Notes under the pieces: generated by a model
Database searches by the model: none
Told to the model about the DNA's origin: nothing
Seen by the model: the letters and a program-made list of their open reading frames with translations, nothing else
DNA from: Octopus vulgaris
Lineage: Eukaryota
DNA length: 64,000 bases
Direction: 5' to 3'
NCBI GenBank assembly: GCA_951406725.2
Contig: OX597831.1
Span: 19,778,001-19,842,000 of the forward strand
Shown: one piece after another, positions 48,943 to 64,000 of the stretch
Numbering within the stretch: position 1 is the first letter of the stretch
How the letters are laid out: each line of letters starts with the position of its first letter
Translations under genes and position numbers: made by a program

Positions 48943-50335
48943 CAACAATTGAGGGTAAAATTAATTAATTATTAATCAATTTCACCAAGTGTTCAGTATG
49001 CAAAGGGACCATTTAAGGCGAATTCAAATTATTACATTATATAAAAGGGCTTAGTAAAATAAATTACTTTGCCGCATACTGAACTCATTAGAAATAGCAG
49101 CTAAAAAACTTTTTTAAAGCTATTTCTAATACTTAAAGAAAATCTCTCTCATGTAGTGTTTGCTTAACTCAACTCACGAAAGTTTGGGGGTAAGGACATC
49201 AAAAAATCAAATGCAAAGGTTATTTGAGAACGTACGTTTCAAGATTAGTCAAAACAACACTTCTATCATCAGCTCAGAAACTCCTTGGTTTGGATTTGAA
49301 AACACTGAAAGTAAGAACATACCTTTTCGGCTTCTCATCGCTTTCGAGATCCGCTCGTAACTAACAGTGCCAACAAACCCAAATAAGCAAGCGAAGAATT
49401 TCTGTCCTCCCCTTTCCACCAGCGTGGGTTAAAATCATCAAACACTATGCTTATTTCGGTAAAATCCGAAGCATTAATTAGAGGGAGATTAATTATAATT
49501 TCAACAATTGAGGGTAAAATTAATTAATTATTAATCAATTTCACCAAGTGTTCAGTATGCAAAGGGACCATTTAAGGCGAATTCAAATTATTACATTATA
49601 TAAAAGGGCTTAGTAAAATAAATTACTTTGCCGCATACTAAACTCATTAGAAATAGCAGCTAAAAACTTTTTTAAAGCTATTTCTAATACTTAAAGAAAA
49701 TCTCTCTCATATATAGTGTTTGCTTAATTCAACTCACAAAAGTTTGGGGGTAAGGACATAAAAAAATCAAATGCTAAGGTTATTTGAGAACGTACGTTTC
49801 AAGATTAGTCAAAACAACACTTCTATCATCAGCTCAGAAACTCCTTGGTTTGGATTTGAAAACACTGAAAGTAAGAGCATACCTTTTCGGCTTCTCATCG
49901 CTTTCGAAGATCTGCTCGTAAGCTATTTCTAATGAGTTCAGTATGCGGCAAAGTAATTTATTTTACTAAGCCCTTTTATATAATGTAATAATTTGAATTC
50001 GCCTTAAATGGTCCCTTTGCATACTGAACACTTGGTGAAATTGATTAATAATTAATTAATTTTACCCTCAATTGTTGAAATTATAATTAATCTCCCTCTA
50101 ATTAATGCTTCGGATTTTACCGAAATAAGCATAGTGTTTGATGATTTTAACCTTTGCATTTGATTTTTTGATGTCCTTACCCCCAAACTTTCGTGAGTTG
50201 AGTTAAGCAAACACTACATGAGAGAGATTTTCTTTAAGTATTAGAAATAGCTTTAAAAAAGTTTTTTAGCTGCTATTTCTAATGAGTTCAGTATGCGGCA
50301 AAGTAATTTATTTTACTAAGCCCTTTTATATAATA
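48940..50335 (-). mobile_element. Retrozyme-like tandem (560-bp unit, ~1.75 copies) plus inverted segments
   Basis: Units start 48940 and 49499; identical hammerheads at 49225-49276 and 49785-49836; inverted copies 49921-50335. Confidence 0.85.
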
Positions 50336-50349
50336 TATATATATATATA

Positions 50350-51271
50350 GTGTTGCATATTTGCCATTTGAATATGGCTAACCCATAAGGGTGGATGCTA
50401 CTGTAGTTTGTAGCCCCAGGAAGATATCTCCTCCAGCTGGCTATAGACACACTATCTGTGTCCTGTCAGTATTTGTGAAGGGGAGTCATCCTCCCCGTCT
50501 TCAACACATGATACACACGTACCCGAGTTTCAAGGTGTTTACCTTTCATCAACGTGTGACAATCATGGTTGTCGATGAGAAGTCAGATCCCTTCACAAAT
50601 ACATATACTTTTTCCAGTGTCGATCTGACACTGATGTTGAAAAAGTGAAATCAAACAATGATAAATCTCAGAGCGAGTTATAAACAGTAGCGGTAACACA
50701 TCGTGACGCATATTTGCCATTTGAATATGGCTAACCCATAAGGGTGGATGCTACTGTAGTTTGTAGCCTCAGGAAGATATCTCCTCCAGCTGGCTATAGA
50801 CACACTATCTCTGTCCTGTCAGTATTTGTGAAGGGGAGTCATCCATATTCAAATGGCAAATATGCAACACGATGTGTTACCGCTACTGTTTATAACTCGC
50901 TCTGAGATTTATCATTGTTTGATTTCACTTTTCCAATATCAGTGTCAGCCGACACTGGAAAAAGTATATGTATTTGTGAAGGGAGCTGACTTCTCATCGA
51001 CAACCATGATTGTCACACGCTGATGAAAGGTAAACACCTTGAAACTCGGGTACGTGTGTATCATGTGTTGAAGACGGGGAGGATGACTCCCCTTCACAAA
51101 TACTGACAGGACACAGATAGTGTGTCTATAGCCAGCTGGAGGAGATATCTTGCTGGGGCTACAAACTACAGTAGCATCCACTCTTATGGGTTAGCCATAT
51201 TCAAATGGCAAATATGCAACACGATGTGTTACCGCTACTGTTTATATCTCGCTCTGAGATTTATCATTGTT
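50350..51271. mobile_element. Retrozyme-like 353-bp unit, tandem plus inverted
   Basis: Units at 50355/50708, inverted at ~50843/51195; hammerhead 51014-51058(+) and C3U copy 50514-50558(-). Confidence 0.85.
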
Positions 51272-51281
51272 ATATATATAT

Positions 51282-53339
51282 GTTAGTTAGTTATTTAGTT
51301 AGTTAATTTGGCTCAAAAGCAAATAGCAAGGCCATGTAGGGGGGACATGGAGTTAAGTACAGGGTGGTGTTCATGTAAAGAGTTCAGGCCACTTGAGGTC
51401 CAGGGAGGCTTTGAACAAAGCGGTCGTCGGCATCTTCACCATCTCGTCTGGCAGCTTGTTCCACGGATCCGCAACCCGGACGGAGAAAGCCCCTCTCCTT
51501 CGATTGAGATGAAATCGTCGCAGGTAGAGCTTTTCGGAATGACCCCGCAGCCGACGCTCTGGAGCAGGAGTGAAGAACAGCTCTTTCGAGAGGTTACACT
51601 TTCCGCTTATGATGTTGTGGGCGAGAATGAAATCACCACGGCGGCGGCGTTTTTCAAGAGAATAAAGGTCGAGCGTCCTCAGCCTTTCTTCGTAGGACAA
51701 ATTTTTGAGACCATGAACCATGCGGGTAGCCAGCTTCTGGACTCTTTCGAGATGCTGTATGTCTTTGAGGAGATAAGGAGAAGAGGCTTGAATCCCATAC
51801 TCCAATATTGGTCTCACCAGCGTGACATAGAGTGGTAGGAATATGGCTACTGTGAGCATTCCGAATGACCGTCGAATCAAGAACAGAATTCCGCGTGCTT
51901 TGTTGGCAGCATGGACGCACTGGGCCGAAGGCGAAAAGGAGGAATCCACCAAGATACCCAGGTCCTTTACCTGATCGGTCCTCTCCAGCAGCAGACGACC
52001 CGGCTCGAAATCAAGTTGAGTTGCAGGAGTAGAGCCGACAGGCAGATGACAGCACTTTGACACGTTCAGACACAGGTCCCAATCGTTAGACCACTTCCAA
52101 ATTTGGTGGAGGCATCGACGAAGATCCTCTATATTACCGCGAGGAGCGACCAGTTTGATATCGTCGGCAAATAGAAGGGTGTGTTGCGTGAGGTCGTCGG
52201 GCAAGTCATTTATGAAGACTAAGAACAACAAGGGCCCAAGCACTGAACCTTGAGGCACGCCACTGCTCGCACTGGAGACGTCGGACCGCGAACCATTAAC
52301 TTGGACTTGGAAGGAGCGATCTGAGAGGAAGGCACCAACCCATCGTATAATATCCGGATGGAAACTATATGCTTGAAGCTTGACAAGTAATAGGCGGTGG
52401 TTTACCGAGTCAAAAGCTTTGGCAAAGTCCAATAAAACGATGTCAACAGCATCACTATCATCGAGGATGCGCGTCACCAATTCTTCCATTACTAGTAAGT
52501 TGGTCAAGCATGATCTCTTCGGCACGAAGCCGTGTTGGGAATCAGAGATAGAGGCTGTGTTTAGGAGGTGGAGCATCATACTTTTCTTAAGGATGGTTTC
52601 GAACATCTTGCTGATTATTGATGTAAGGGAAACCGGTCGGTAGTTAAGCGGGTCTTCGCGGCTCCCTTTCTTGAAAATTGGGCAGATTATCGCTGTTCTC
52701 CAGTCTGCAGGTATATCACCCGTTGCCAATGACATATTGAATAGTCGTGTTAAGGGCTCGCAGATGACCGGAGCCAACGCTTTGATAACCCGTGGGTGTA
52801 TGCCGTCAGGGCCGTGACCCTTGTTGACATCGAGGCCTTGAATAACACGTTTGACTTCGTCCCTCGTGATGACCAATCGAAGCATTGGAGGTACCGATCT
52901 ATCAAATGGAGGGGGTTCACGACCATCATCTTGTTTGAAAATAGTTGAAAAAGCCTCGGCAAATAATTGGCTCTGTTGATAAGGGTCCTCAATCGATACG
53001 CCTGTTGAGTCTACCAACGTTGCAATCTGGTTGTTCAAGCGGGAATTCCGCTGGACATGGGCAAATAAAGGTTTTTGGATTGCTACTGGCATTTGCCGCG
53101 ATTTTGTATTCATAACTGAAGCGTTCTTTCTTTTCAATTTTCACGACTCGGTCTCGTTGAGTTTTGTACACCTCAAAAGCTGCAGTCGAATCCAGACTTT
53201 TGAATTCAGCCCAAGCAATATCTCTGAGTCGACGTTCTCGTTTAACCTTCTTCGTCACCCAGGGCTTGTGTTTCTTCTTCTTGGGAAGCCCAACGGGAAC
53301 TGCCTGGTCAGTCAAACAGATTACATATGCTTTGAGGGA
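51282..53339 (-). mobile_element. 5'-truncated CR1-group LINE (RT domain), one frameshift near 53070
   Basis: KPWVT, GPDGIHP, YRPVSLTS, LDFAKAFD, GVPQGSVLGP, FADD, LEKRRRRGD; (TAAC)n tail. Confidence 0.93.
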
Positions 53340-53382
53340 TGACATATATATATATATGTGTGTGCGTGTGTGTGTATGTATG

Positions 53383-53449
<67 letters not shown>

Positions 53450-53598
53450 ATATATATATATGTATATATATAGAGAGTGATATGTATGCATATATATATA
53501 CATACATATATGTATGTATGTCTGCATGCATGTATGTATGAATATATATATGTATATATATGTGTGTGCATATATATATATATATATACAAATATATG

Positions 53599-53643
<45 letters not shown>

Positions 53644-54930
53644 GTGTGTGTGTGTATGTATATATATATTTTTTTAATATATTTATTGATCATATAAGAT
53701 TTTTAGAATATATTTAATAATTAGTGGTTTTTAATCATTTAAATTAATTTATTTTGTATTAAGTATTATTTATCATAGTTATTTTATTAATAAATATAAT
53801 AGTATAGAGAGATTTTATTCTTTTTTTGTGACTTCATTCTATTTACACTGATAAACCATTAATATTCCCATTCACAATCTCATTGATAAAGCGTATGTTC
53901 CTCACGCTTAATGAATTCTTCGACAATTTATTCTTTTTTTGCTAATAACGTAATACCACGAGTATTCTTATAAACGCTGTAAAGACGTTTTCCGATTCAA
54001 AATTTTAGTTCATTACTAAACCTCGCTAAGATAAGTATTTATTTATATTTAAGATCTTCAAATTGTAAATTTTAATATTGTATAAGTCTTTGGTGTAATA
54101 ATATTTTCCTTATGTAAATATCGTTGTTTATGTAATGATCTAATTATCGTAATTTTCTATATTATTAGATATTAAATTTAAGTTTAATCGTAAGATACTA
54201 CTTAGCGATAGATTTGTTGTTTGATAGCAAGTATACGAGGTGTATAAAGTTAGGCTTTTGTATATACATGTTTTAAATTTCTTATAATTATATTAGATAA
54301 ACTTTGATAAACTTAGATATGTTTCGACTAAAGATTGGTCCAGGCCATGTCTAATTCAATAGCATAACTTAGTTATTGTTTTTTTAAATTGATATTCGCT
54401 AGTTATTCCCATTGATAATTATATTTATAGTATTTATAGTATTTATTCGATACTATATTACTACGAATTGATTATTTCTATAAGTATTTTACATAAGATT
54501 TCCGAAAGTTCGTTTAAGTTTGTTTATTTGTATTTTGAAATTAGCTATTTCATCTTTAAATATGAAAAATTAATTTATTAGTTTTTTATTATATGTGCAT
54601 ATATATTTATTTATAGAGATTATTTTAGATCTTAATTATAATATTTATATACATTTATATATTTTCATTGATAATTTATATATAATAGTCATTTTTAAAT
54701 ATTTATGTAATTAGATATAGATTAATACCAATATTAGATTATTGGTGGGTTTCCTACCTTATAAATTAAAATTAATATTTAACATTATAGTCGATTTTGA
54801 TATAATCATAATTGTTAAGTTTTATCTTTCTAGTTTGATAATAGAGTTTATTATAAGTAAAATTATTATATTATTTATATCTTAAAAATATTGTTTAAAT
54901 ATTTCTGATTATTTTTTAGATATTTCATTT

Positions 54931-55024
54931 AACCTGAAGATTGACTGTAGCCATAACTCGAATTATTAATTGAATTTAAATTATTGTTATTCGAATTGTA
55001 CAGCCATGAAACGATCGTATTGTT
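54931..55024 (+). ncRNA. Hammerhead motif, long stem II, weak stem I
   Basis: CTGAAGA-ttgactgta...tacagccat-GAAAcgatcgTA. Confidence 0.6.
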
Positions 55025-55251
55025 TTACTCTTTATCTTTTATTAAACTTTTAATACTTTTGATATATATTTAAAATAATATAAATTAAATTAATTTTAGG
55101 TATTGGCTTAGGATTTTCATTGTTTGATTTGCCTAATAGTGGTTTTATCTCTAATTTAATATAATATAATATAATATATTTATACTATAAAATTGAATTT
55201 AATCCTAAATCTGATTTTTCCCTGTAAGTTTGGATTTATTCCCTAATATTT

Positions 55252-55316
<65 letters not shown>

Positions 55317-55739
55317 GGCCGTAAAAGAAGTAAATATAGATTGGATAAATAGGGCGTCTGGCATCAGGATAAAAAAAGGTATTACGTTTCAGACCAGGAT
55401 GCAGAAAAGCTTGAAGGTGGAATGTTTAAAAGTGGAGAATAAGCAGTATTGGTGGGAAGAAGAAGAAGAAGAAGAAGAAGAAGAAGAAGAAGAAGAAGAA
55501 GAAGAAGAAGAAGAAGAAGAAGAAGAAGAAGAAGGCTCGGTGGAGTTCTGAAAGTGTCGTGGCAGGGAAGAGCGAGAGGAGATGAGAGAGACATTTCAGG
55601 AAGAGGGAGTGGGGTTACTTAATCTCCACGAATTTGGACCCTCGTAAGGATTCGGAGTTTAAGTTCGAATCATTTGGGCGATAGTAAGTATTTTCATATT
55701 GAGAATCTCTAGATTTCATGTCGACTACATACGTGTACT

Positions 55740-55804
<65 letters not shown>

Positions 55805-55951
55805 CTATATATGTTTCTATACACACACACACATAAGAGTGGCTGCGTGCTAAGTAGCTTGCTTCCCAACTACGTGGTTCTGATTTGTGGGTGGATTTGG
55901 TAGACGAAAACCGAAAGAAACCCGTCGTGTATATATATATATATATATATA

Positions 55952-56333
55952 TCTCTATATATAAACGGCAGTTTGTCTGTGCGTGTTTCTGTGTGTCTGT
56001 TTGCTTGTACCCTCACCCTGACCACGGCTTTCAACCGATTCTGATGAAACTTGACACACACGTAGCCCAATGTCATAATTCAAAACTAACGCAGCGAAAA
56101 TTTTGAAAAGTTCCCCCAGTTCTGAAAAAATCGATAAATTCGACATGGGGTCGAGAATCAGAAACACGAACCACAAACTGTCTAGGGGACGCAACTCCAC
56201 CTTTTTTAAATCTCAAAAAAAAATTTACCATCATTTTTTTCCATTTTTTTGCTATTTTTTGGCTATCACTCTCTAAAAATGCTTTATAGTTATTTCCCTT
56301 ACAAACCTGAGCAACGCCGGGTGATACTGCTAG
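55952..56333 (+). mobile_element. Non-autonomous Helitron (Lep1-like)
   Basis: A|TCTCTATATATAAA...(GTCT-like)...CCTGAGCAACGCCGGG..CTAG|T. Confidence 0.8.
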
Positions 56334-56359
56334 TATATATATATATATATATATATATG

Positions 56360-57675
56360 AAAAATCAAGTCAGGATAGAAAATACTAAAATAATTTTATA
56401 AAAACATTTCAGTACCGGTTTCAGTCATTGAGACTTTTTCAACTGTAACAATGAAATAATTAAATTAAAGTGGTCAGTGGCGGCTAGCTGTTGCTGTTCA
56501 ATTCATGAGAATATTTCTATTGAAAGGTTTGTTTATAGAATTTGCGTAAGTATTATACTAAAAAGCATTAGTGATAAAGTTAGGAAGTAGAAGGGGAGAA
56601 GAAGAAGAAGAAGAAGAAGAAGAAGAAGAAGAAGAAGAAGAAGAAGAAGAAGAAGAAGAAGAAGGGGGAATATGAATGAGTAGAAGTAGTGAGGTGTTGT
56701 ATGACTTAAAGTTGGCACGTTATGGGTTATAGCTGTGATTGGGGCTGATTTTTAATGGATTCTTAGGAATGTAATATTTGCGCGTGTATTTGTGTTATTC
56801 TAAAGCCAAGGTGGATATATCGTTTGTCGTAGACCGGTTCAGAAGGGGCCTGTATTTTGTAATAAAGAGAGTTTCTTTACTTATTCGTTGGCTCGGGGTT
56901 GTATCGTCCCTGAATTGGTAGAGGGGGAAAATCCTAAAGCTTGGAGTTTTGTTGTTGGCGCAAATATCTATGTGTTGGCTGAATCCTATTTTTCTGTTTT
57001 GGGGAATTTTTATCTGGATCTGTGCAGGGCCATTCTTTTACGTAAACTATTTTTTGTTTGGCCTATGTATTGCTCTTGACACCCAGAGCAGGTAGTGTGT
57101 ATATCAGGTTCTCCGAAGCACATGCGAAGTTGCTTTTCACTGTGAACTGTTGTCCCTGTTTGAAGGAGAACTCTGATCTCTCAATTAGATAATCGCATAT
57201 CCCGCAATTGGGTCTTCCACATTTTTTTACTGTCGGCTTCTGTGTTGATGAGCGTATGCTTTTTAGTATAACACCTACGCAAATTCTATAAACAAACCTT
57301 TCAATAGAAATATTCTCATGAATTGAACAGCAACAGCTAGCCGCCACTGACCACTCAAAATACGACAATCAAGGCACTCCGAAATTCTTTCCGCCCCACC
57401 TTCTCCTCATCTTTCTTCTTTTTCTTCCCTACCAAGAATTCACAACGACCTCAAACCCACAAGTGTAAAAAGAGAAACAGGGAAAGGCAGAAACAAGGAA
57501 AATGCCACTTATATTTGAACACTATACAAATATTCTTTTAAAAGACCTTTTCTTTTAATTTTTCTAAATTTAATTATTTAATTGTTGCAGTTGAAAAGGT
57601 TTCAAATGACCGAAACCGGTACTAAAATGTTCTTTATAAAATTATTTTAGCATTTTCTATCTTGACTTGTTTTTT
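56360..57675 (-). mobile_element. Penelope-like element remnant: GIY-YIG endonuclease with inverted hammerhead-bearing ends
   Basis: CGRPNCGIC...NLIY (frameshift) CSGCQEQYIGQT..LRKR...KETLFITKYRPLLN at ~56835-57250; 56360-56570 inverted to 57255-57675. Confidence 0.85.
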
Positions 57676-57975
57676 CATATATATCAACTCGTGTGTTCCT
57701 TTTCATCCTTATACATATATATATCGAAACGCAGAGTAGATGAAACCATGGCGACTGAAGAAGGGGAATTTTCCTTGTGTTATTTGTATTGTACACTACT
57801 TTTTCGTTGTTTAAGAAAAATGTCCAGTTCCTTGGTTTTGTGTTTATGTTTTCGTTTCTCATTGTGTTCGACGTTATTTTTGGTGTCCTGTACCCATATA
57901 TGCATGTATATATACATGTAGAGGTAGGTACGTACATATATGTATGTATATATGCATATCTTTTATTTATTAATT

Positions 57976-58024
<49 letters not shown>

Positions 58025-58659
58025 TAAATTCAGAATACCAAGGATTCCGAATCAAACTGGTTTAATCTATACATGTAACTTCCAAAAAATCCTTTGAGCG
58101 CCCTTCTTTTGTTTGTCTGCTCACTTGTATGTGTGTTTGTGTATGTGTATATGTGTGTGTGTTTGTGTGCATATATGTGTGTATGTATGTATGTATGTGT
58201 GTATGTATGTATGTATGTATGTATGTATATAGTCAATATTATTTCGAGATTTCTTGCCAATAGAGAAAGAGCCGGTTTCTAAACTAGATCCAAGGCTCCT
58301 TCACTGGAAATTCAACATCAACGGGTTATGCATGTATGTATGTATGTATGGATGGATGGATGTATGTATGTATGTATGTATGTATGTATGTATGTATGTA
58401 TGTATGTATGTATGTATGTATGTATGTATGTATGGATGGATGGATGGATGGATGGATGGATGGATGGATGGATGTATGTATGGATGGATGGATGGATGGA
58501 TGGATGGATGGATGGATGGATGGATGGATGGATGGATGGATGGATGGATGTGTATGTGTTTTCTTTAAAGTATGTATTTTCATGCATATAGTTGCATATT
58601 TAGATAGGCACATATATACCAAAATTATATACTTCAAGAATGTTCTACAAATCATTATA

Positions 58660-60225
58660 GTTCCACTGATGGCTTGGATCTGTTATCTTCCATTCAGCTT
58701 TCTCGTTTCTGGTTTTGAGAAGCCTAATTTCTCAAGACTGATATTTTGGCAATTTGTTACATATCACAGGGCCCCAATAATTACAGGTATAAACCTGAAC
58801 TTATAATCTGGATTCGTAACAGCAGATTTCTCAAGCGTACGTATTTTCTCAAGTGTAGGTATTTTCTTTTTCACTGAACTGGGCAGCTGAATTCTACAAC
58901 TTTACACAGTTGCTCTTTTCTATCCCAAATCTCTATGTCAGGTCTATTATGTTTTCATTTTATTAAGGTTTGCCCGGCGACATTCCACCATTATTATGAG
59001 TGGCTATGGCTTCTACCATACCGTGGGTTCTTATTTCTTTGTCCCCCCAGGTTATTCTTCCGAAGTTTCTCGTTTTACAGTGCCCTGGCTACATCATATC
59101 TCATCGATAGATAATACTGTGATTACATTTTGGGGCAGCTACCTATGATATTGGTGATATATTTGGTGTTAACTTCACAAAGTCTGCATAACTTCTGCAT
59201 CTTTGTCTCTTGCATCAGGTATTTGGTTAATATTTCCTGTTCCTGGATTGCAAGCGTATACCCTTCAAAGCGGGAGTTAGTAATCCAGCTGTTGTTCCAT
59301 GATAGACTGCTTTGAATATTAATCTTTGAATATCCTCTTGGAGCTTTCTGCTAATATATCCGTGCATAGTCATCTGCCCACATACGCTCGTCCTTTCATC
59401 TGATGATACGTTGCAGCAGAGTCGTGGAATTTCTTTGGGCGTGCATTTAAGGTTATCAAGACAAAGAATGCTGCTTTCTAAGTCTTATGATGTTAATCAG
59501 CCTCAAGTATGCCCACCTGGCCAAGGGATACGCTTCGACACTTGTTGGTTAAAAGATGATGCCGAAGGGATATGATACGACATTCAAAGGCAGTCTGGAT
59601 CGATGTTAAGCCTCTTCTGTTTTGTTATCGTTTTAGGTAGAGGCGGTCTACGTCACTGCTAATGTGGGAATTGTGTGCTGATTAAATTCGAGTTTTCACA
59701 TCAGTGGCTTGGATCTCATCAAGCGTCCAATCAAGCAGCCCAAATATTGGTATGAGTACTGGCACTACTAGCGCATTGTGGGCCATTGTTTTATTCAATG
59801 TGGAAAGTTCCGAGACCCATATTTTCTCCATTCGACTGCAATATTCTTTGGTGACATGCATTTTGTTACTGGTGCCATTGTAAGATGTGTTTTCAATTAC
59901 CCTTAGATGCATGTAACATTCCTGATCAGATACAGGGGAGACTGTTAAGCCATTGATGCGGATGTTGCTAGTGCTATTTAGTTTCTTTTCGTTTCATCAC
60001 CATATAAAAACATTTATCCTGACCAAACTTGAACCCTACATCCTTTGAGAATGTTGTAACCGGGTCAAGGATCTTTTTCATCTCATGCATATTCTCAGCA
60101 TATAGTCTCAAGTCATCCACAAAGAAACAGTTTGTAATTTTGGTATTTCTGTTTCCTTGTGAACCAGTGAGATATCCTTAAGACTTCCTTAATATGAATG
60201 ATAAGGGGTTTGCAGAAGCCCTCCC
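58660..60225 (-). mobile_element. Decayed R4/Dong-clade (RLE) LINE
   Basis: FVDDLRLY, FGQDKC, DVDRLYL, AIQEQEI, CRLC..GSC, WWN..RPDI..VEFSCP remnants. Confidence 0.8.
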
Positions 60226-60544
60226 TATATATATATAAATGTGTGTGTGTGTGTGTTCTTGTTGATGTTGGTGCTGATGCTGTAAATGTTATTGTTGCTG
60301 TTTTGGCAGGTGAAAGTTTTAGTCCTACTGCTGTGTCGTTGTGACCGTCTGCCTCTATTGCTGCTGTTGCTCCTGTTGTTGTTGTAGTGGTGGTGGTGAT
60401 GGTGTCTGCAGTAGTGTTGGTTTCCTTTGCTGTGGGAGTAGGAAAAGAAGAGAAAGAATAAGAAAAATACGGCAGAGGTAGGAGAGTAGTAGGATGTTGG
60501 TGGAATCCTTTTAAAGGGTCAAGTAACTCCCATTATACCACTCC

Positions 60545-60765
60545 CGTATTCTTCTTCTTCTCCTCCTTCTTCTTCTCCTGCATCTTCTTCTTCAATCTTT
60601 CTCTTTTTCTTCTTCTTCTTCTTCAATCTTCTTCTCCTTCTTCTTCTCCTCCTCCTCCTTCTTTTTCTCCTGCTTCTTCTTCTTCAATCTTCTTCTTTTT
60701 CTTCTTCTCCTTCATCTTCTCCTTCATCTTCTTATTCTATCTTCTTCTTCTTCTTCGCCTCCTTC
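60545..60765. repeat. (TTC/CTC)n polypyrimidine tract
   Basis: Directly visible; pure (GAA)n also at 55457-55533 and 56598-56662. Confidence 0.9.
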
Positions 60766-61211
60766 CTCGGCTACTGTTGCTTGAACCAAGGGACTCATAT
60801 CAAATATTCTTTTAGGATTGCCTACTACCAAGTATTCACAAGAGTAAAAAAAGAGACAAAGACAGAAAGAAAAAAGGAAAATGTCCCTTGTATTCGGAAA
60901 CTATGGAAATATTTAAAAAAAAAAAAACATTTCATTTCATTTTTCCACAAATTAATTGTTTTTCATGCTTTACTCTGACTTGAAAAGTCTGAAACCGGAA
61001 GTAAAATGTTCTTCATGATAAAGTTATTTTAGCATTGTCTACCTTGTCTTATTATATTCCTTATATGTGTGTGGGTGTGTGGGTGTGTCTGTGTGCGCGT
61101 GTGTGTGTGTGTATGTGTATGTATATATATATATATATATATGTACATATATATGTATGTATATATGTATATATATGTGTGTATATATATATGTATATAG
61201 ATATGTAAATG

Positions 61212-61242
<31 letters not shown>

Positions 61243-61969
61243 ATATATGTATACACTCACTCAATCAATAACTTTGGTGTGGTTCCCGTATCGTTTTGCG
61301 GAGTGTTATGACTCATTTTCTAATATTCCTCGTTACCATCGTAACGACAATGGCCTATTATCTTACTATCTTGTCTAACTGACCTCCTAAAGATACTTAC
61401 CTTAGTATATTAAAACACAAACAATACATTGGGGTGAGTCTCTGTACGTTTTTTCTAAGTATTATGGCTAAAATATGGAATGCGATACACCGTTTCGTAG
61501 TACCGGTATATTCTACAAAATGAGAAAGACCCAGTCGTTGTTTCATCTTTCAGATACATAAATAGATAGATAGTTTTACAGGTACAATGACTAGAAGCGG
61601 CCTTCACGGTCATTTTAAGACCAAAACCAGCTTCCTAACTTCATTCCTTCCCGAGATGTCGCATTCTGAATGTCGCGAAACTTTGACTGCGTTTTTCTCG
61701 GATTTTAAGTTGTGGCGCTTACGACGGTCTGTCACTAAACGCCTCAAATGTCCTCTGTTTTCAATACTTGCGATAATACATTCACATCCGCCGGATAGTT
61801 GATTCCTACAAAAGTGCACGGCTTCTGTTTTCTGTCCTTCACAAAAATATCAGGTCTGTTATGTTTCCACAAAATTAATACATTTATTGGGGGGGGGGGT
61901 CCACAATCATGTATGTCTCTATGTATAGATGGATGGATGCATGAATGTATATATATATGTAATTTTTAT

Positions 61970-62171
61970 CTGTTTCAGTCATCAGACAGTGGCCATGCTG
62001 GAGCACCAACTCCAATTTTAGTCGAAAGAATCGACTCCACTACTTATTTTTTAAGTCTGGTACTTATTCTATCGATTTCTTTGGCCGAACCGCTATGTTA
62101 CAAGGACGTAAACACACCAACACCAGTTGTCAAGTGGTGATGGGGGTAGAAACATACACACACACACACAC

Positions 62172-62216
<45 letters not shown>

Positions 62217-62360
62217 CGGGCTTCTTTCAGTTTCCGTCTACCAAATCCACTCACAAGTCTTTGGTCGACCCGAGGCAATAGCAGAAGACACTTGCCCAAG
62301 GTACCACACAGTGGGACTGAACCCGGAACCATGTGATTGGAAAACAAGCTTCTTACCACA
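61970..62360 (-). mobile_element. Dominant SINE
   Basis: Consensus head and tail. Confidence 0.85.
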
Positions 62361-63213
62361 CACCCTCTCCTCCACTTATTTATGTATGCCATTGTCCAGT
62401 TTTATTTCATGATTTCTTGCCAATGGAGAAAGAGCTGGTTTCGAACCCAGATCCGAAGCTCCTTCAATGGAGATTCAACATCAACTACAGGGTATGTTTT
62501 ATATATGTATGTAATATTATGTGTGTATGTTCTGTATGTATGTATGTATGTATGTATGTTATGTATGCATGCAAGCATGCAGGTATGTTATATTGTCGTG
62601 TATGTCATGTTTGTATGTATTACGTATGTATGTATGATATGTTATGTATGTATACATGTATGCATTATGTAGTTATGTATGTATTATGTATGTATGTGTG
62701 TTATGTATGTATGTATGTGTGTTATGTATGTATGTATATGATGTTAAGTTATGCTTGTTGTGTATGTATGTCTAAACATATAGTTGAACTTGCAAAACCG
62801 TGCGCTCTGGAAGAAATATCATTTTCCCCTACACTATTGTTCCGCCAAGTAGAAAAGCAATTTGCATTTCAAGAAAATTCGAAAATCTTCCCTTGAAACA
62901 CGATATTTAATAACTTAACGACGTTCATTTCAAATTCATTTTTTGCGGTCTAAGGGAAGTAACTCTAACAAATTTATCCCCCTTGCCAAAGCAGTTACAC
63001 AGCTCGGCTTAAATAGACTTTATGCTTGTATTACAGCACTATTGTATACAACGTTGCAGGAGTTTATACACGCATACATATATGAAACGGATGGATGAGG
63101 AGATCTGCTGCGAATCGTCCGTTTATTACGTTCCTCTTTTGTGTTTGTTATGTAATCGTCAATTTTTTCTGCCTGTTGTTTTTGTCCTCCCTTTGATTTA
63201 TTTCTGTGTGTGT

Positions 63214-63282
<69 letters not shown>

Positions 63283-63458
63283 TGTGTGTGTGTATGTTTG
63301 TCTATGTGTGCGTGTTTATGTGTGTCTATGTATACATACATACATACATATATATATACATACATATACATACATACGTATATATATATATAAATTTTCA
63401 GAATGGGATAAAAAAAACCAAGGCAGTGAGAGATTTTAGAACATTTAGAAATAGAAAT

Positions 63459-63504
63459 TCTTACAGCCGATTCGGGGATATTTATTATATCCCGTCACCG
63501 AAGA
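63459..63504 (-). ncRNA. Degenerate hammerhead relic
   Basis: tct-TCGGTGA-c-gggatat-aataa-atatccc-c-GAATcggctgTA-aga; stems kept, core mutated. Confidence 0.4.
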
Positions 63505-63951
63505 CGGTGTGAAAAAATGGTTATGCAATAGTTAATTTAGATAAGATATGAAGTAGAGAGTGGAGTGGAGGAATGAAAATAGATGTGAGATATGCAGGGA
63601 TATTGCATTTGTAGATCCATTCTTTAAGCAGAATGGTATACATGTAAGATTCCAGTTCCATTGCTTTTCTTTTCGTTTTCTTTGTTCCTCTCTTAATGCT
63701 TAGATTTGACCTTACAAATACATTCCCAACCTTTATGTCACTTTAAATATGACCCTCGATTCAATAACACCAGGTACAAACTCTATGCTTGGAATGACCA
63801 ATTTTAAATACTATTTGAACTTATTCTCAAGGAACTAGAATCTTAGTCTATCCATAGCACTTACTCAGCATTACCTGACACCTTTGCGTCTTACTGACAC
63901 CATTACCTCTCATAACCTATACATATATATATATATATATACAGAGAGAGA

Positions 63952-64000
<49 letters not shown>

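What the first reader, a model, noticed from the sequence alone, without database searches (positions are those of the whole stretch)
56360..57675. GIY-YIG Penelope remnant whose inverted ends carry U3-A8 hammerheads with covarying stems
cag-TTGAAAA-agtc-tcaat-gact-GAAAccggTA-ctg (56445-56410, minus) and cag-TTGAAAA-ggtt-tcaaat-gacc-GAAAccggTA-cta (57588-57624, plus). Established: positions 3 and 8 form a Watson-Crick pair, so U3-A8 is the compensatory form of C3-G8. The first stem II pair also switches from A-U to G-C between the copies. This physically links the ribozymes to a PLE endonuclease, the likely helper class. A third decayed end lies at ~60830-61040. Plain CUGANGA searches would miss this family.
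Basis: partly seen in the sequence, partly recalled or inferred. Interest (0 to 1): 0.8.

Follow-up and report, generated by a model that had tools for sequence, protein, structure and literature searches.

The report
Dead Penelope copy with U3-A8 hammerheads
This is a broken copy of an abundant Penelope-type jumping gene whose two inverted end repeats each carry a small hammerhead RNA motif, predicted to self-cleave only in pairs; its unusual U-A core pair and the inverted layout are both already published, so it is an ordinary new example.

Summary
Both hammerhead strings lie where stated (0 matches in 100 shuffles). A twice-frameshifted GIY-YIG endonuclease end occupies 57252-56837 on the minus strand (tblastn E 3e-30; three pieces hit a PLE profile). 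A diverged third end lies at 60837-61053.

The locus is a 5'-truncated Penelope-like element (PLE), likely Neptune clade, followed by its pseudo-LTR, with an inverted second pseudo-LTR joined at its 5' end. It sits between (TA)n runs. The family is high-copy: thousands of public contigs lay on it.

None of this is new. U3-A8 hammerheads in PLE pseudo-LTRs (including the same UUGAAAA core), opposite-strand pairs, and inverted 5'-truncated copies are all in print.

'Covarying stems' is overstated. One pair changes on both sides (chance about 0.02), and both variants of its 5' base exist in the family. The right copy's other changes are private decay, including a broken stem I pair. The two ribozymes face opposite ways, so one transcript cannot pair them; it is predicted to fold into a long hairpin. 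The ribozymes belong to the PLE itself; no separate helper relation is shown. Cleavage was not tested.

The parts
56334..56358 (.). (TA)n run at the left boundary, likely the insertion target
   Evidence: sequence; family contigs also run into TA repeats behind 57684 (table 7)
56360..56568 (-). 3' pseudo-LTR in the sense of the ORF; lacks the 211 nt that the right arm holds at 57356-57566
   Evidence: the same 211-nt skip in one contig of run X3, ends CA..TA, not a splice (table 5)
56410..56445 (-). type I hammerhead motif: stem I 3 bp, core UUGAAAA (U3 at 56442), stem II 4 bp starting A-U, GAAA, palindromic ACCGGU helix III, UA; predicted cut between 56413 and 56412
   Evidence: minimum-energy fold forms stems I and II (z -0.29, so no better than shuffles)
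56598..56663 (-). (TTC)n microsatellite in the 3' UTR
   Evidence: sequence
56795..57252 (-). C-terminal end of the PLE ORF: CX4CxxC linker finger, GIY-YIG with CCHH residues, stop codon; two frameshifts near 57092 and 57015; no RT part
   Evidence: family contigs show 1-nt indels at both places (table 4)
57253..57255 (.). inversion junction between the truncated ORF and the inverted arm
   Evidence: family contigs leave the window sequence behind 57252 and before 57256 (table 7)
57256..57684 (+). inverted, 5'-truncated second pseudo-LTR, ending in a short TA run
57588..57624 (+). type I hammerhead motif, decayed: core UUGAAAA (U3 at 57591), stem II starting G-C with a U.G fourth pair, stem I only 2 bp; predicted cut after 57621
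   Evidence: family majority differs at 57587, 57601, 57624 (table 3)
60837..61053 (+). separate, older pseudo-LTR remnant of a related subfamily; keeps TTGAAAA and GAAACCGG but no working ribozyme fold; not an end of the same insertion (inferred)
   Evidence: 72% over 220 nt; alignment; preceded by a degenerate (TTC)n like the main element

Best explanation
The locus is a broken, 5'-truncated copy of a high-copy Penelope-like retrotransposon, likely of the Neptune clade, whose endonuclease end and 3' pseudo-LTR are joined head to head with an inverted second pseudo-LTR, likely in one insertion into a (TA)n tract; each pseudo-LTR carries the family's type I hammerhead motif with a U3-A8 core, predicted to cut only as a pair. 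Shown: the motifs, the ORF remnant, the arms, the junction, the high copy number. Inferred: target-primed reverse transcription at a (TA)n nick, early termination in the linker, and a second, inverted copy from the same template. In the parent element, two same-strand hammerheads of a tandem transcript would pair through the palindrome ACCGGU to make helix III and cut after A17, probably with help from the element's protein, as shown for the anole element. U3-A8 keeps the core Watson-Crick pair. At this locus the two motifs face opposite ways, so a read-through RNA holds one ribozyme and the complement of the other and is predicted to fold into a long hairpin. The copy is likely inert.
For: ORF. 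Homologues are 750-770 aa RT plus C-terminal GIY-YIG proteins with GxKF, DKG, CX4CxxC and CCHH motifs. Linker spacing from CxxC to the next Cys is about 24 residues, as in Neptune and several Naiad rows and unlike Nematis rows of Fig. S2 of PMC8557442; the EN is followed by a stop and 3' UTR, which excludes Naiad. High copy: 6450, 5010, 3544 and 111 contigs laid from 4 of 24 listed runs, three organism labels. One template: both arms share 3 letters (57335, 57354, 57583) where the family majority differs. U3-A8 is not a private accident: 3 of the 24 loose-end consensus rows shown span the core and all read TTGAAAA (22, 43, 36 records). Related elements carry hammerheads at the same place: 10 descriptor hits in 56 loci, all on the ORF strand, 9 C3-G8 and 1 U3-A8, none in 5 shuffles. 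Dimer: the lowest-energy cofold of two left copies forms stem II and the 6-bp ACCGGU helix (-17.7 kcal/mol); the full active dimer is -15.1. Read-through fold: 34 of 36 and 34 of 37 ribozyme bases pair with the other arm. Literature.
Against: No cleavage data. The monomer folds are not better than shuffles (z -0.29 and -1.18). The active dimer is 2.6 kcal/mol (left) and 9.1 kcal/mol (right) above the computed minimum. Rfam finds no hammerhead in 50000-64000 (85 other matches at E<=5), though it also misses the canonical copy at 51020 and 4 of 4 relatives tested. Clade rests on EN motifs and on homologues at up to 67% identity, not on an RT tree with named references. No target-site duplication can be read in the TA runs. 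Only 40 of 199 variant rows and 24 of 1109 loose-end rows were visible, so fixation of U3-A8 in the family is not proven. The outer arms differ more than the inner arms (8/106 versus 2/100; Fisher p 0.10), which leaves room for two different template repeats.
Confidence: 0.88

Rival explanations
1. The motifs are decayed canonical hammerheads: C3 and G8 mutated in a dead lineage, and U3-A8 is not a selected, working core.
For: C-to-T and G-to-A are common decay changes; the window holds a U3-G8 copy of another family next to a C3-G8 copy (50552 versus 51020). 6 of the 8 valid hammerheads downstream of 28 related ORFs are C3-G8. A10.1-U11.1 in the left copy breaks the usually conserved G10.1-C11.1 (PMC4209133).
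Against: Both arms, the 72%-diverged third end and all 3 visible loose-end consensus rows over the core read TTGAAAA. U3-A8 recurs behind another related ORF (L010) and in about 1300 Schistosoma copies. U3-A8 cores were reported active in vitro (passage in PMC3088659).
Confidence: 0.07
2. The inverted pair is itself a functional or mobile unit (a non-autonomous, retrozyme-like element bounded by two ribozymes and moved by a PLE helper).
For: Animal retrozymes have been proposed to be non-autonomous PLE derivatives (bioRxiv 10.64898/2026.07.22.740005). The unit has inverted ends with a ribozyme in each.
Against: Retrozymes are head-to-tail tandems without coding sequence; this unit is head-to-head and holds a frameshifted ORF piece. 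Family contigs continue into normal ORF or 3' UTR at the junction, and none of the 15 listed joints or 32 listed pieces reproduces it. Opposite-strand ribozymes cannot pair within one RNA. Inverted 5'-truncated copies are the usual PLE insertion product (PMC8557442).
Confidence: 0.03
3. The element is a Naiad or Nematis PLE, not Neptune.
For: Naiad and Neptune endonucleases are said to be essentially indistinguishable; Naiads also target (TA)n.
Against: The EN is C-terminal here and in homologues, which have DKG, not DKA; Naiads lack canonical hammerheads. Nematis rows have a much shorter linker.
Confidence: 0.05

Closest known systems
U3-A8 minimal hammerheads of Cercyon PLEs, Schistosoma mansoni (Cervera and De la Pena 2014, PMC4209133)
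   Same: Type I fold in PLE pseudo-LTRs; U3-A8 core, with the same UUGAAAA string in the PLE-linked row S. mansoni(4) of Fig. S3; close opposite-strand pairs from truncated elements; missed by a C3-G8 descriptor.
   Different: Here stem II is 4 bp with no unpaired base after A9, helix III has a 2-nt palindromic loop (ACCGGU), one copy has A10.1-U11.1, and the host element looks Neptune-like. The mollusc rows of Fig. S3 that I saw are all C3-G8.
Neptune clade PLEs (as described in Craig et al. 2021, PMC8557442)
   Same: C-terminal GIY-YIG with CCHH, CX2-5CxxC linker with long spacing, hammerhead near the 3' end, inverted 5'-truncated copy, microsatellite target.
   Different: Only the last ~150 codons survive, frameshifted twice; RT absent at this locus; core U3-A8.
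PAc Poseidon hammerhead, green anole (Frangieh et al. 2024, PMC11167929)
   Same: PLE pseudo-LTR hammerhead relying on the 3-8 pair; model for protein-assisted cleavage.
   Different: C3-G8 core, Poseidon clade, tested in vitro; cleavage was not needed for insertion there.
Non-LTR retrozymes (bioRxiv 10.64898/2026.07.22.740005)
   Same: Type I hammerheads related to PLE pseudo-LTRs.
   Different: Tandem, non-coding, head-to-tail; this locus is head-to-head and carries ORF sequence.

Membership tests
EN+ Penelope-like element | GIY-YIG endonuclease with CCHH motif (two Cys between GIY and YIG, two His after) | tested here: met
   NLIY..CSGC..YIG, then two His; broken by two frameshifts
EN+ Penelope-like element | PLE-type RT in the same ORF | tested here: inconclusive
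   absent at this locus (no RT hit in the window); present in homologues of the EN piece
EN+ Penelope-like element | pseudo-LTRs, often with an inverted 5'-truncated copy | tested here: met
   feature stated in PMC8557442
Neptune clade | C-terminal EN preceded by a CX2-5CxxC linker with long spacing | tested here: met
   CGRPNCGIC then about 24 residues to the next Cys, compared by eye with Fig. S2
Neptune clade | placement in the RT phylogeny | not tested
   no named reference sequences were on hand as stored proteins; no tree built
Naiad clade | N-terminal EN, DKA motif, no canonical hammerhead | tested here: not met
   EN ends at a stop followed by 3' UTR; homologues have DKG and a C-terminal EN
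Type I hammerhead ribozyme | core N3UGANN8A, GAAA, UH with a Watson-Crick 3-8 pair | tested here: met
   both copies; not the third end, which lacks U16.1
Type I hammerhead ribozyme | helices I, II and III around the core | tested here: inconclusive
   left copy: I 3 bp, II 4 bp, III only as a dimer; right copy: stem I only 2 bp, fails the descriptor
Type I hammerhead ribozyme | covariation across many sequences | tested here: inconclusive
   one double change between two copies, chance 0.022; partners not visible in family reads
Type I hammerhead ribozyme | site-specific self-cleavage | not testable with these tools
   needs an in vitro assay
Non-LTR retrozyme | head-to-tail tandem non-coding units, each with a hammerhead | tested here: not met
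   inverted arms around an ORF fragment

The most novel reading that the evidence does not exclude
A high-copy Neptune family has fixed a U3-A8 core and tolerates A10.1-U11.1, and its ribozyme is switched by splicing: the pyrimidine-rich tract ending in CAG directly before U3 is a 3' splice site, so intron removal swaps the 5' strand of helix I and decides whether the RNA is cut. That would extend the intron-ribozyme overlap of Drosophila virilis Penelope to a distant clade and give a testable control for PLE RNA processing.
Probability: 0.08. Interest if true: 0.45.

Novelty: new member of a known kind. Interest (0 to 1): 0.15.

Why it matters
It adds one more animal PLE family, likely Neptune-type, to those using the U3-A8 core, and shows that both CUGANGA descriptors and Rfam undercount PLE hammerheads (Rfam missed every example tested here). 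It does not open a new mechanism. What PLE hammerheads do in vivo is still open, but a dead, inverted copy is a poor place to test it; intact family members would be better. I found no paper on cephalopod or other mollusc U3-A8 PLE hammerheads in searches, but the library lacks most subscription papers.

Tried and rejected
No whole genome is held for this window, so copies could not be counted or aligned directly.
Rfam: no hammerhead at E<=5; uninformative, as it also misses canonical copies.
Pfam on the three frameshift pieces: below cut-off; replaced by tblastn and a profile of homologues.
Pattern search in viral contigs: 0 matches. BLASTN of the arm and EN DNA against 56 related loci: no hit.
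An early idea that the inversion used a 12-nt microhomology was dropped: family contigs leave the window sequence at 57252 and the arm begins at 57256.
The 211-nt deletion in the left arm is not a spliced intron (ends CA..TA).
No RNA holder is on record; run X10 is RNA only by guess, so nothing is claimed about expression. One X10 contig runs unbroken across the possible splice acceptor (57466-57660), and none of the 15 joints shown (23 hidden) ends there.
The RT at 58560-60200 was considered as the missing PLE RT and rejected.
A covariance model from relatives was not built because the alignment misplaced at least 2 of 12 rows.
The third end has two possible readings (TTGAAAA as core with collapsed stem II, or as loop of a GAC/GTC stem with a deleted core); neither gives a working ribozyme.
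Przybilski and Hammann 2007 and Lunse et al. 2017 are not held; the first is known to me only through its citation in PMC3088659, the second only by title. Either may hold data on U3-A8 activity.

Full report
Observation. The two strings are in the window at the stated places. A pattern written from both copies matches twice and never in 100 shuffles; since it was written from the copies, the better control is a generic type I descriptor. It finds the left copy among 5 window hits, against 1 hit in 10 block shuffles. It does not find the right copy, whose stem I has only two pairs. Numbering of the right copy: U3 57591, A8 57596, G10.1 57598, C11.1 57611, A17 57621.

The coding remnant. Minus-strand translation gives three pieces in three frames. 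A search with the first piece found one homologue, P0001 (67% identity, E 2e-13). P0001 aligns over 57236-56837 in three segments. It retrieves 55 longer proteins; of three scanned against Pfam, all hit GIY-YIG at the C-terminus and two also hit RVT_1. A profile from 40 of the 56 proteins hits 3 of 1990 six-frame segments in the window, all three at this locus, covering profile positions 589-728 of 729. So only the C-terminal end survives. The pieces show the CX4CxxC linker, the two Cys between GIY and YIG, and two His. The homologue consensus has GxKF and DKG. By the features in Craig et al. 2021 (PMC8557442; passages; supplement part 54) this fits Neptune: the EN is C-terminal (not Naiad), has the linker (not Poseidon), and the linker spacing is long (not Nematis). 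No RT tree was built, so the clade is likely, not proven. The host is a repeat-rich animal; the named homologues are from bivalves, so a mollusc is a reasonable guess only.

Anatomy. Reading the minus strand: ORF end, stop, 3' UTR with (TTC)n, pseudo-LTR 56568-56360 with the ribozyme, then (TA)n. At 57253-57255 the strand flips and a second pseudo-LTR runs 57256-57684 on plus. The left arm lacks 211 nt that the right arm has. Contigs from 4 of 24 listed runs were laid on 56670-57690: 6450, 5010, 3544 and 111 contigs, from three organism labels. Loose ends show the family continuing as ORF behind 57252, as 3' UTR before 57256, and into TA repeats behind 57684. Both arms share three letters at which the family majority differs (57335, 57354, 57583), which points to one template. 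This is the layout that Craig et al. describe as common: an inverted 5'-truncated copy next to the 5' end.

The ribozyme. The left copy folds into stems I and II at minimum energy, though not better than shuffles. Helix III is the palindrome ACCGGU, too short for a monomer. Two left copies cofold with this 6-bp helix and both stem IIs as the minimum (-17.7 kcal/mol); the full active dimer is -15.1. For the right copy the gap is 9 kcal/mol. A transcript through the locus is predicted to pair 34 of 36-37 ribozyme bases with the opposite arm. The inverted pair therefore cannot be the working dimer; that role would belong to same-strand tandem repeats of an intact element.

Is U3-A8 real for the family? 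Three of the 24 loose-end consensus rows shown span the core; all read TTGAAAA, followed by GGTC (22 records) or AGTC (43 and 36 records). None of the 40 variant rows shown (of 199) lies in the core. The third end also keeps TTGAAAA. Among 56 loci with related ORFs the descriptor found 10 hammerheads, all on the ORF strand: 9 C3-G8 and 1 U3-A8 (L010), none in 5 shuffles. A looser scan behind 28 ORF ends gave 10 hits; I dropped 2 with invalid cores, leaving 6 C3-G8, 1 U3-A8 and 1 U3-G8. L010 ranks only 20th in EN similarity, so U3-A8 is scattered and may have arisen more than once (inference; no tree).

Covariation. The arms differ at 8 of 106 outer positions. One pair, 10.1-11.1, changes on both sides; a simulation gives 0.022 for at least one such change by chance. 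Both A and G occur at 10.1 in the family, but the partner base was not visible, and C11.1 sits in a CpG, where C-to-T decay is common (general knowledge). The right copy's T at 57601, A at 57624 and G at 57587 depart from a family majority of 74-100% of depth in all four runs and match neither the family nor the left copy. They are decay, not covariation.

Third end. 60837-61053 is 72% identical to the right arm, follows a degenerate (TTC)n, and lacks U16.1 and a complete stem II. Its upstream letters resemble the AGTC subfamily. It is best read as a separate, older insertion. Between it and the main element lies a non-LTR retrotransposon remnant (RVT_1 E 7e-6, zf-RVT E 0.02 on 2 of 3 pieces) that the PLE profile does not hit.

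What is known. Cervera and De la Pena 2014 (PMC4209133; parts 1-2 of 4 of the text and part 2 of supplement 2 read; supplement 1 could not be searched) report hammerheads in all PLE repeats examined, a U3-A8 variant found through the Cercyon element with about 1300 hits in S. mansoni, opposite-strand pairs 100-700 bp apart, palindromic helix III, low dimer activity, and an intron end at helix I in D. virilis. Their Fig. S3 lists a PLE-linked row with core UUGAAAA. Perreault et al. 2011 (PMC3088659; passages) report natural U3-A8 cores and cite earlier in vitro activity. Frangieh et al. 2024 (PMC11167929; parts 1-2 of 4) show that a PLE hammerhead needs the 3-8 pair and the element's protein, and is not needed for insertion in vitro. 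The 2026 bioRxiv preprint (parts 1-2 of 5) derives animal retrozymes from PLEs. PMC6765202 and PMC7151607 were seen as passages. Two earlier notes of this scan on other genomes reached the same reading; they are not independent evidence.

Verdict. Interest 0.15. The boldest reading left open is splice control of the ribozyme through the CAG before U3 (probability about 0.08); the visible read data give it no support.

Noticed in passing
window 50347-51271: A second, unrelated set of nested inverted repeats (90-98% identical) with a canonical CUGAUGA type I hammerhead at 51020 (+; stems 6/5/3 bp) and a U3-G8 copy at 50552 (-), between TA runs; looks like pseudo-LTRs of another PLE or retrozyme family. 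Rfam missed it.
   Followed up: partly
window ~8452 (minus strand): Another U3-A8 minimal hammerhead-like motif (stem I 3 bp, one unpaired base after A9, stem II 5 bp), not similar to the studied arms; fold z -2.55. Possibly a third family.
   Followed up: partly
window ~22960 (minus strand): Weak U3-G8 descriptor hit in low-complexity sequence; may be chance.
   Followed up: no
window 58560-60200 (minus strand): Broken non-LTR retrotransposon with RT, zinc finger and a C-terminal motif like a restriction-type endonuclease (R4/Dong-like by recall, untested).
   Followed up: partly
window 57530-57590: Pyrimidine-rich tract ending in CAG immediately before U3; could be a 3' splice site as in D. 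virilis Penelope; no strong GT donor in the arm and no matching joint among those shown.
   Followed up: partly
window ~51350-53330 (minus strand): GC-richer stretch that reads like another LINE-type RT fragment (by eye only).
   Followed up: no
L010:1790, L022:1929: Related Neptune-like ORFs in public metagenome contigs carry U3-A8 (L010) and U3-G8 (L022) hammerheads 250-390 nt behind the ORF match.
   Followed up: partly
L001-L056: Animal PLE sequences occur in metagenome contigs and in one contig titled as a bacterial genome (L056), likely host DNA carried along.
   Followed up: no
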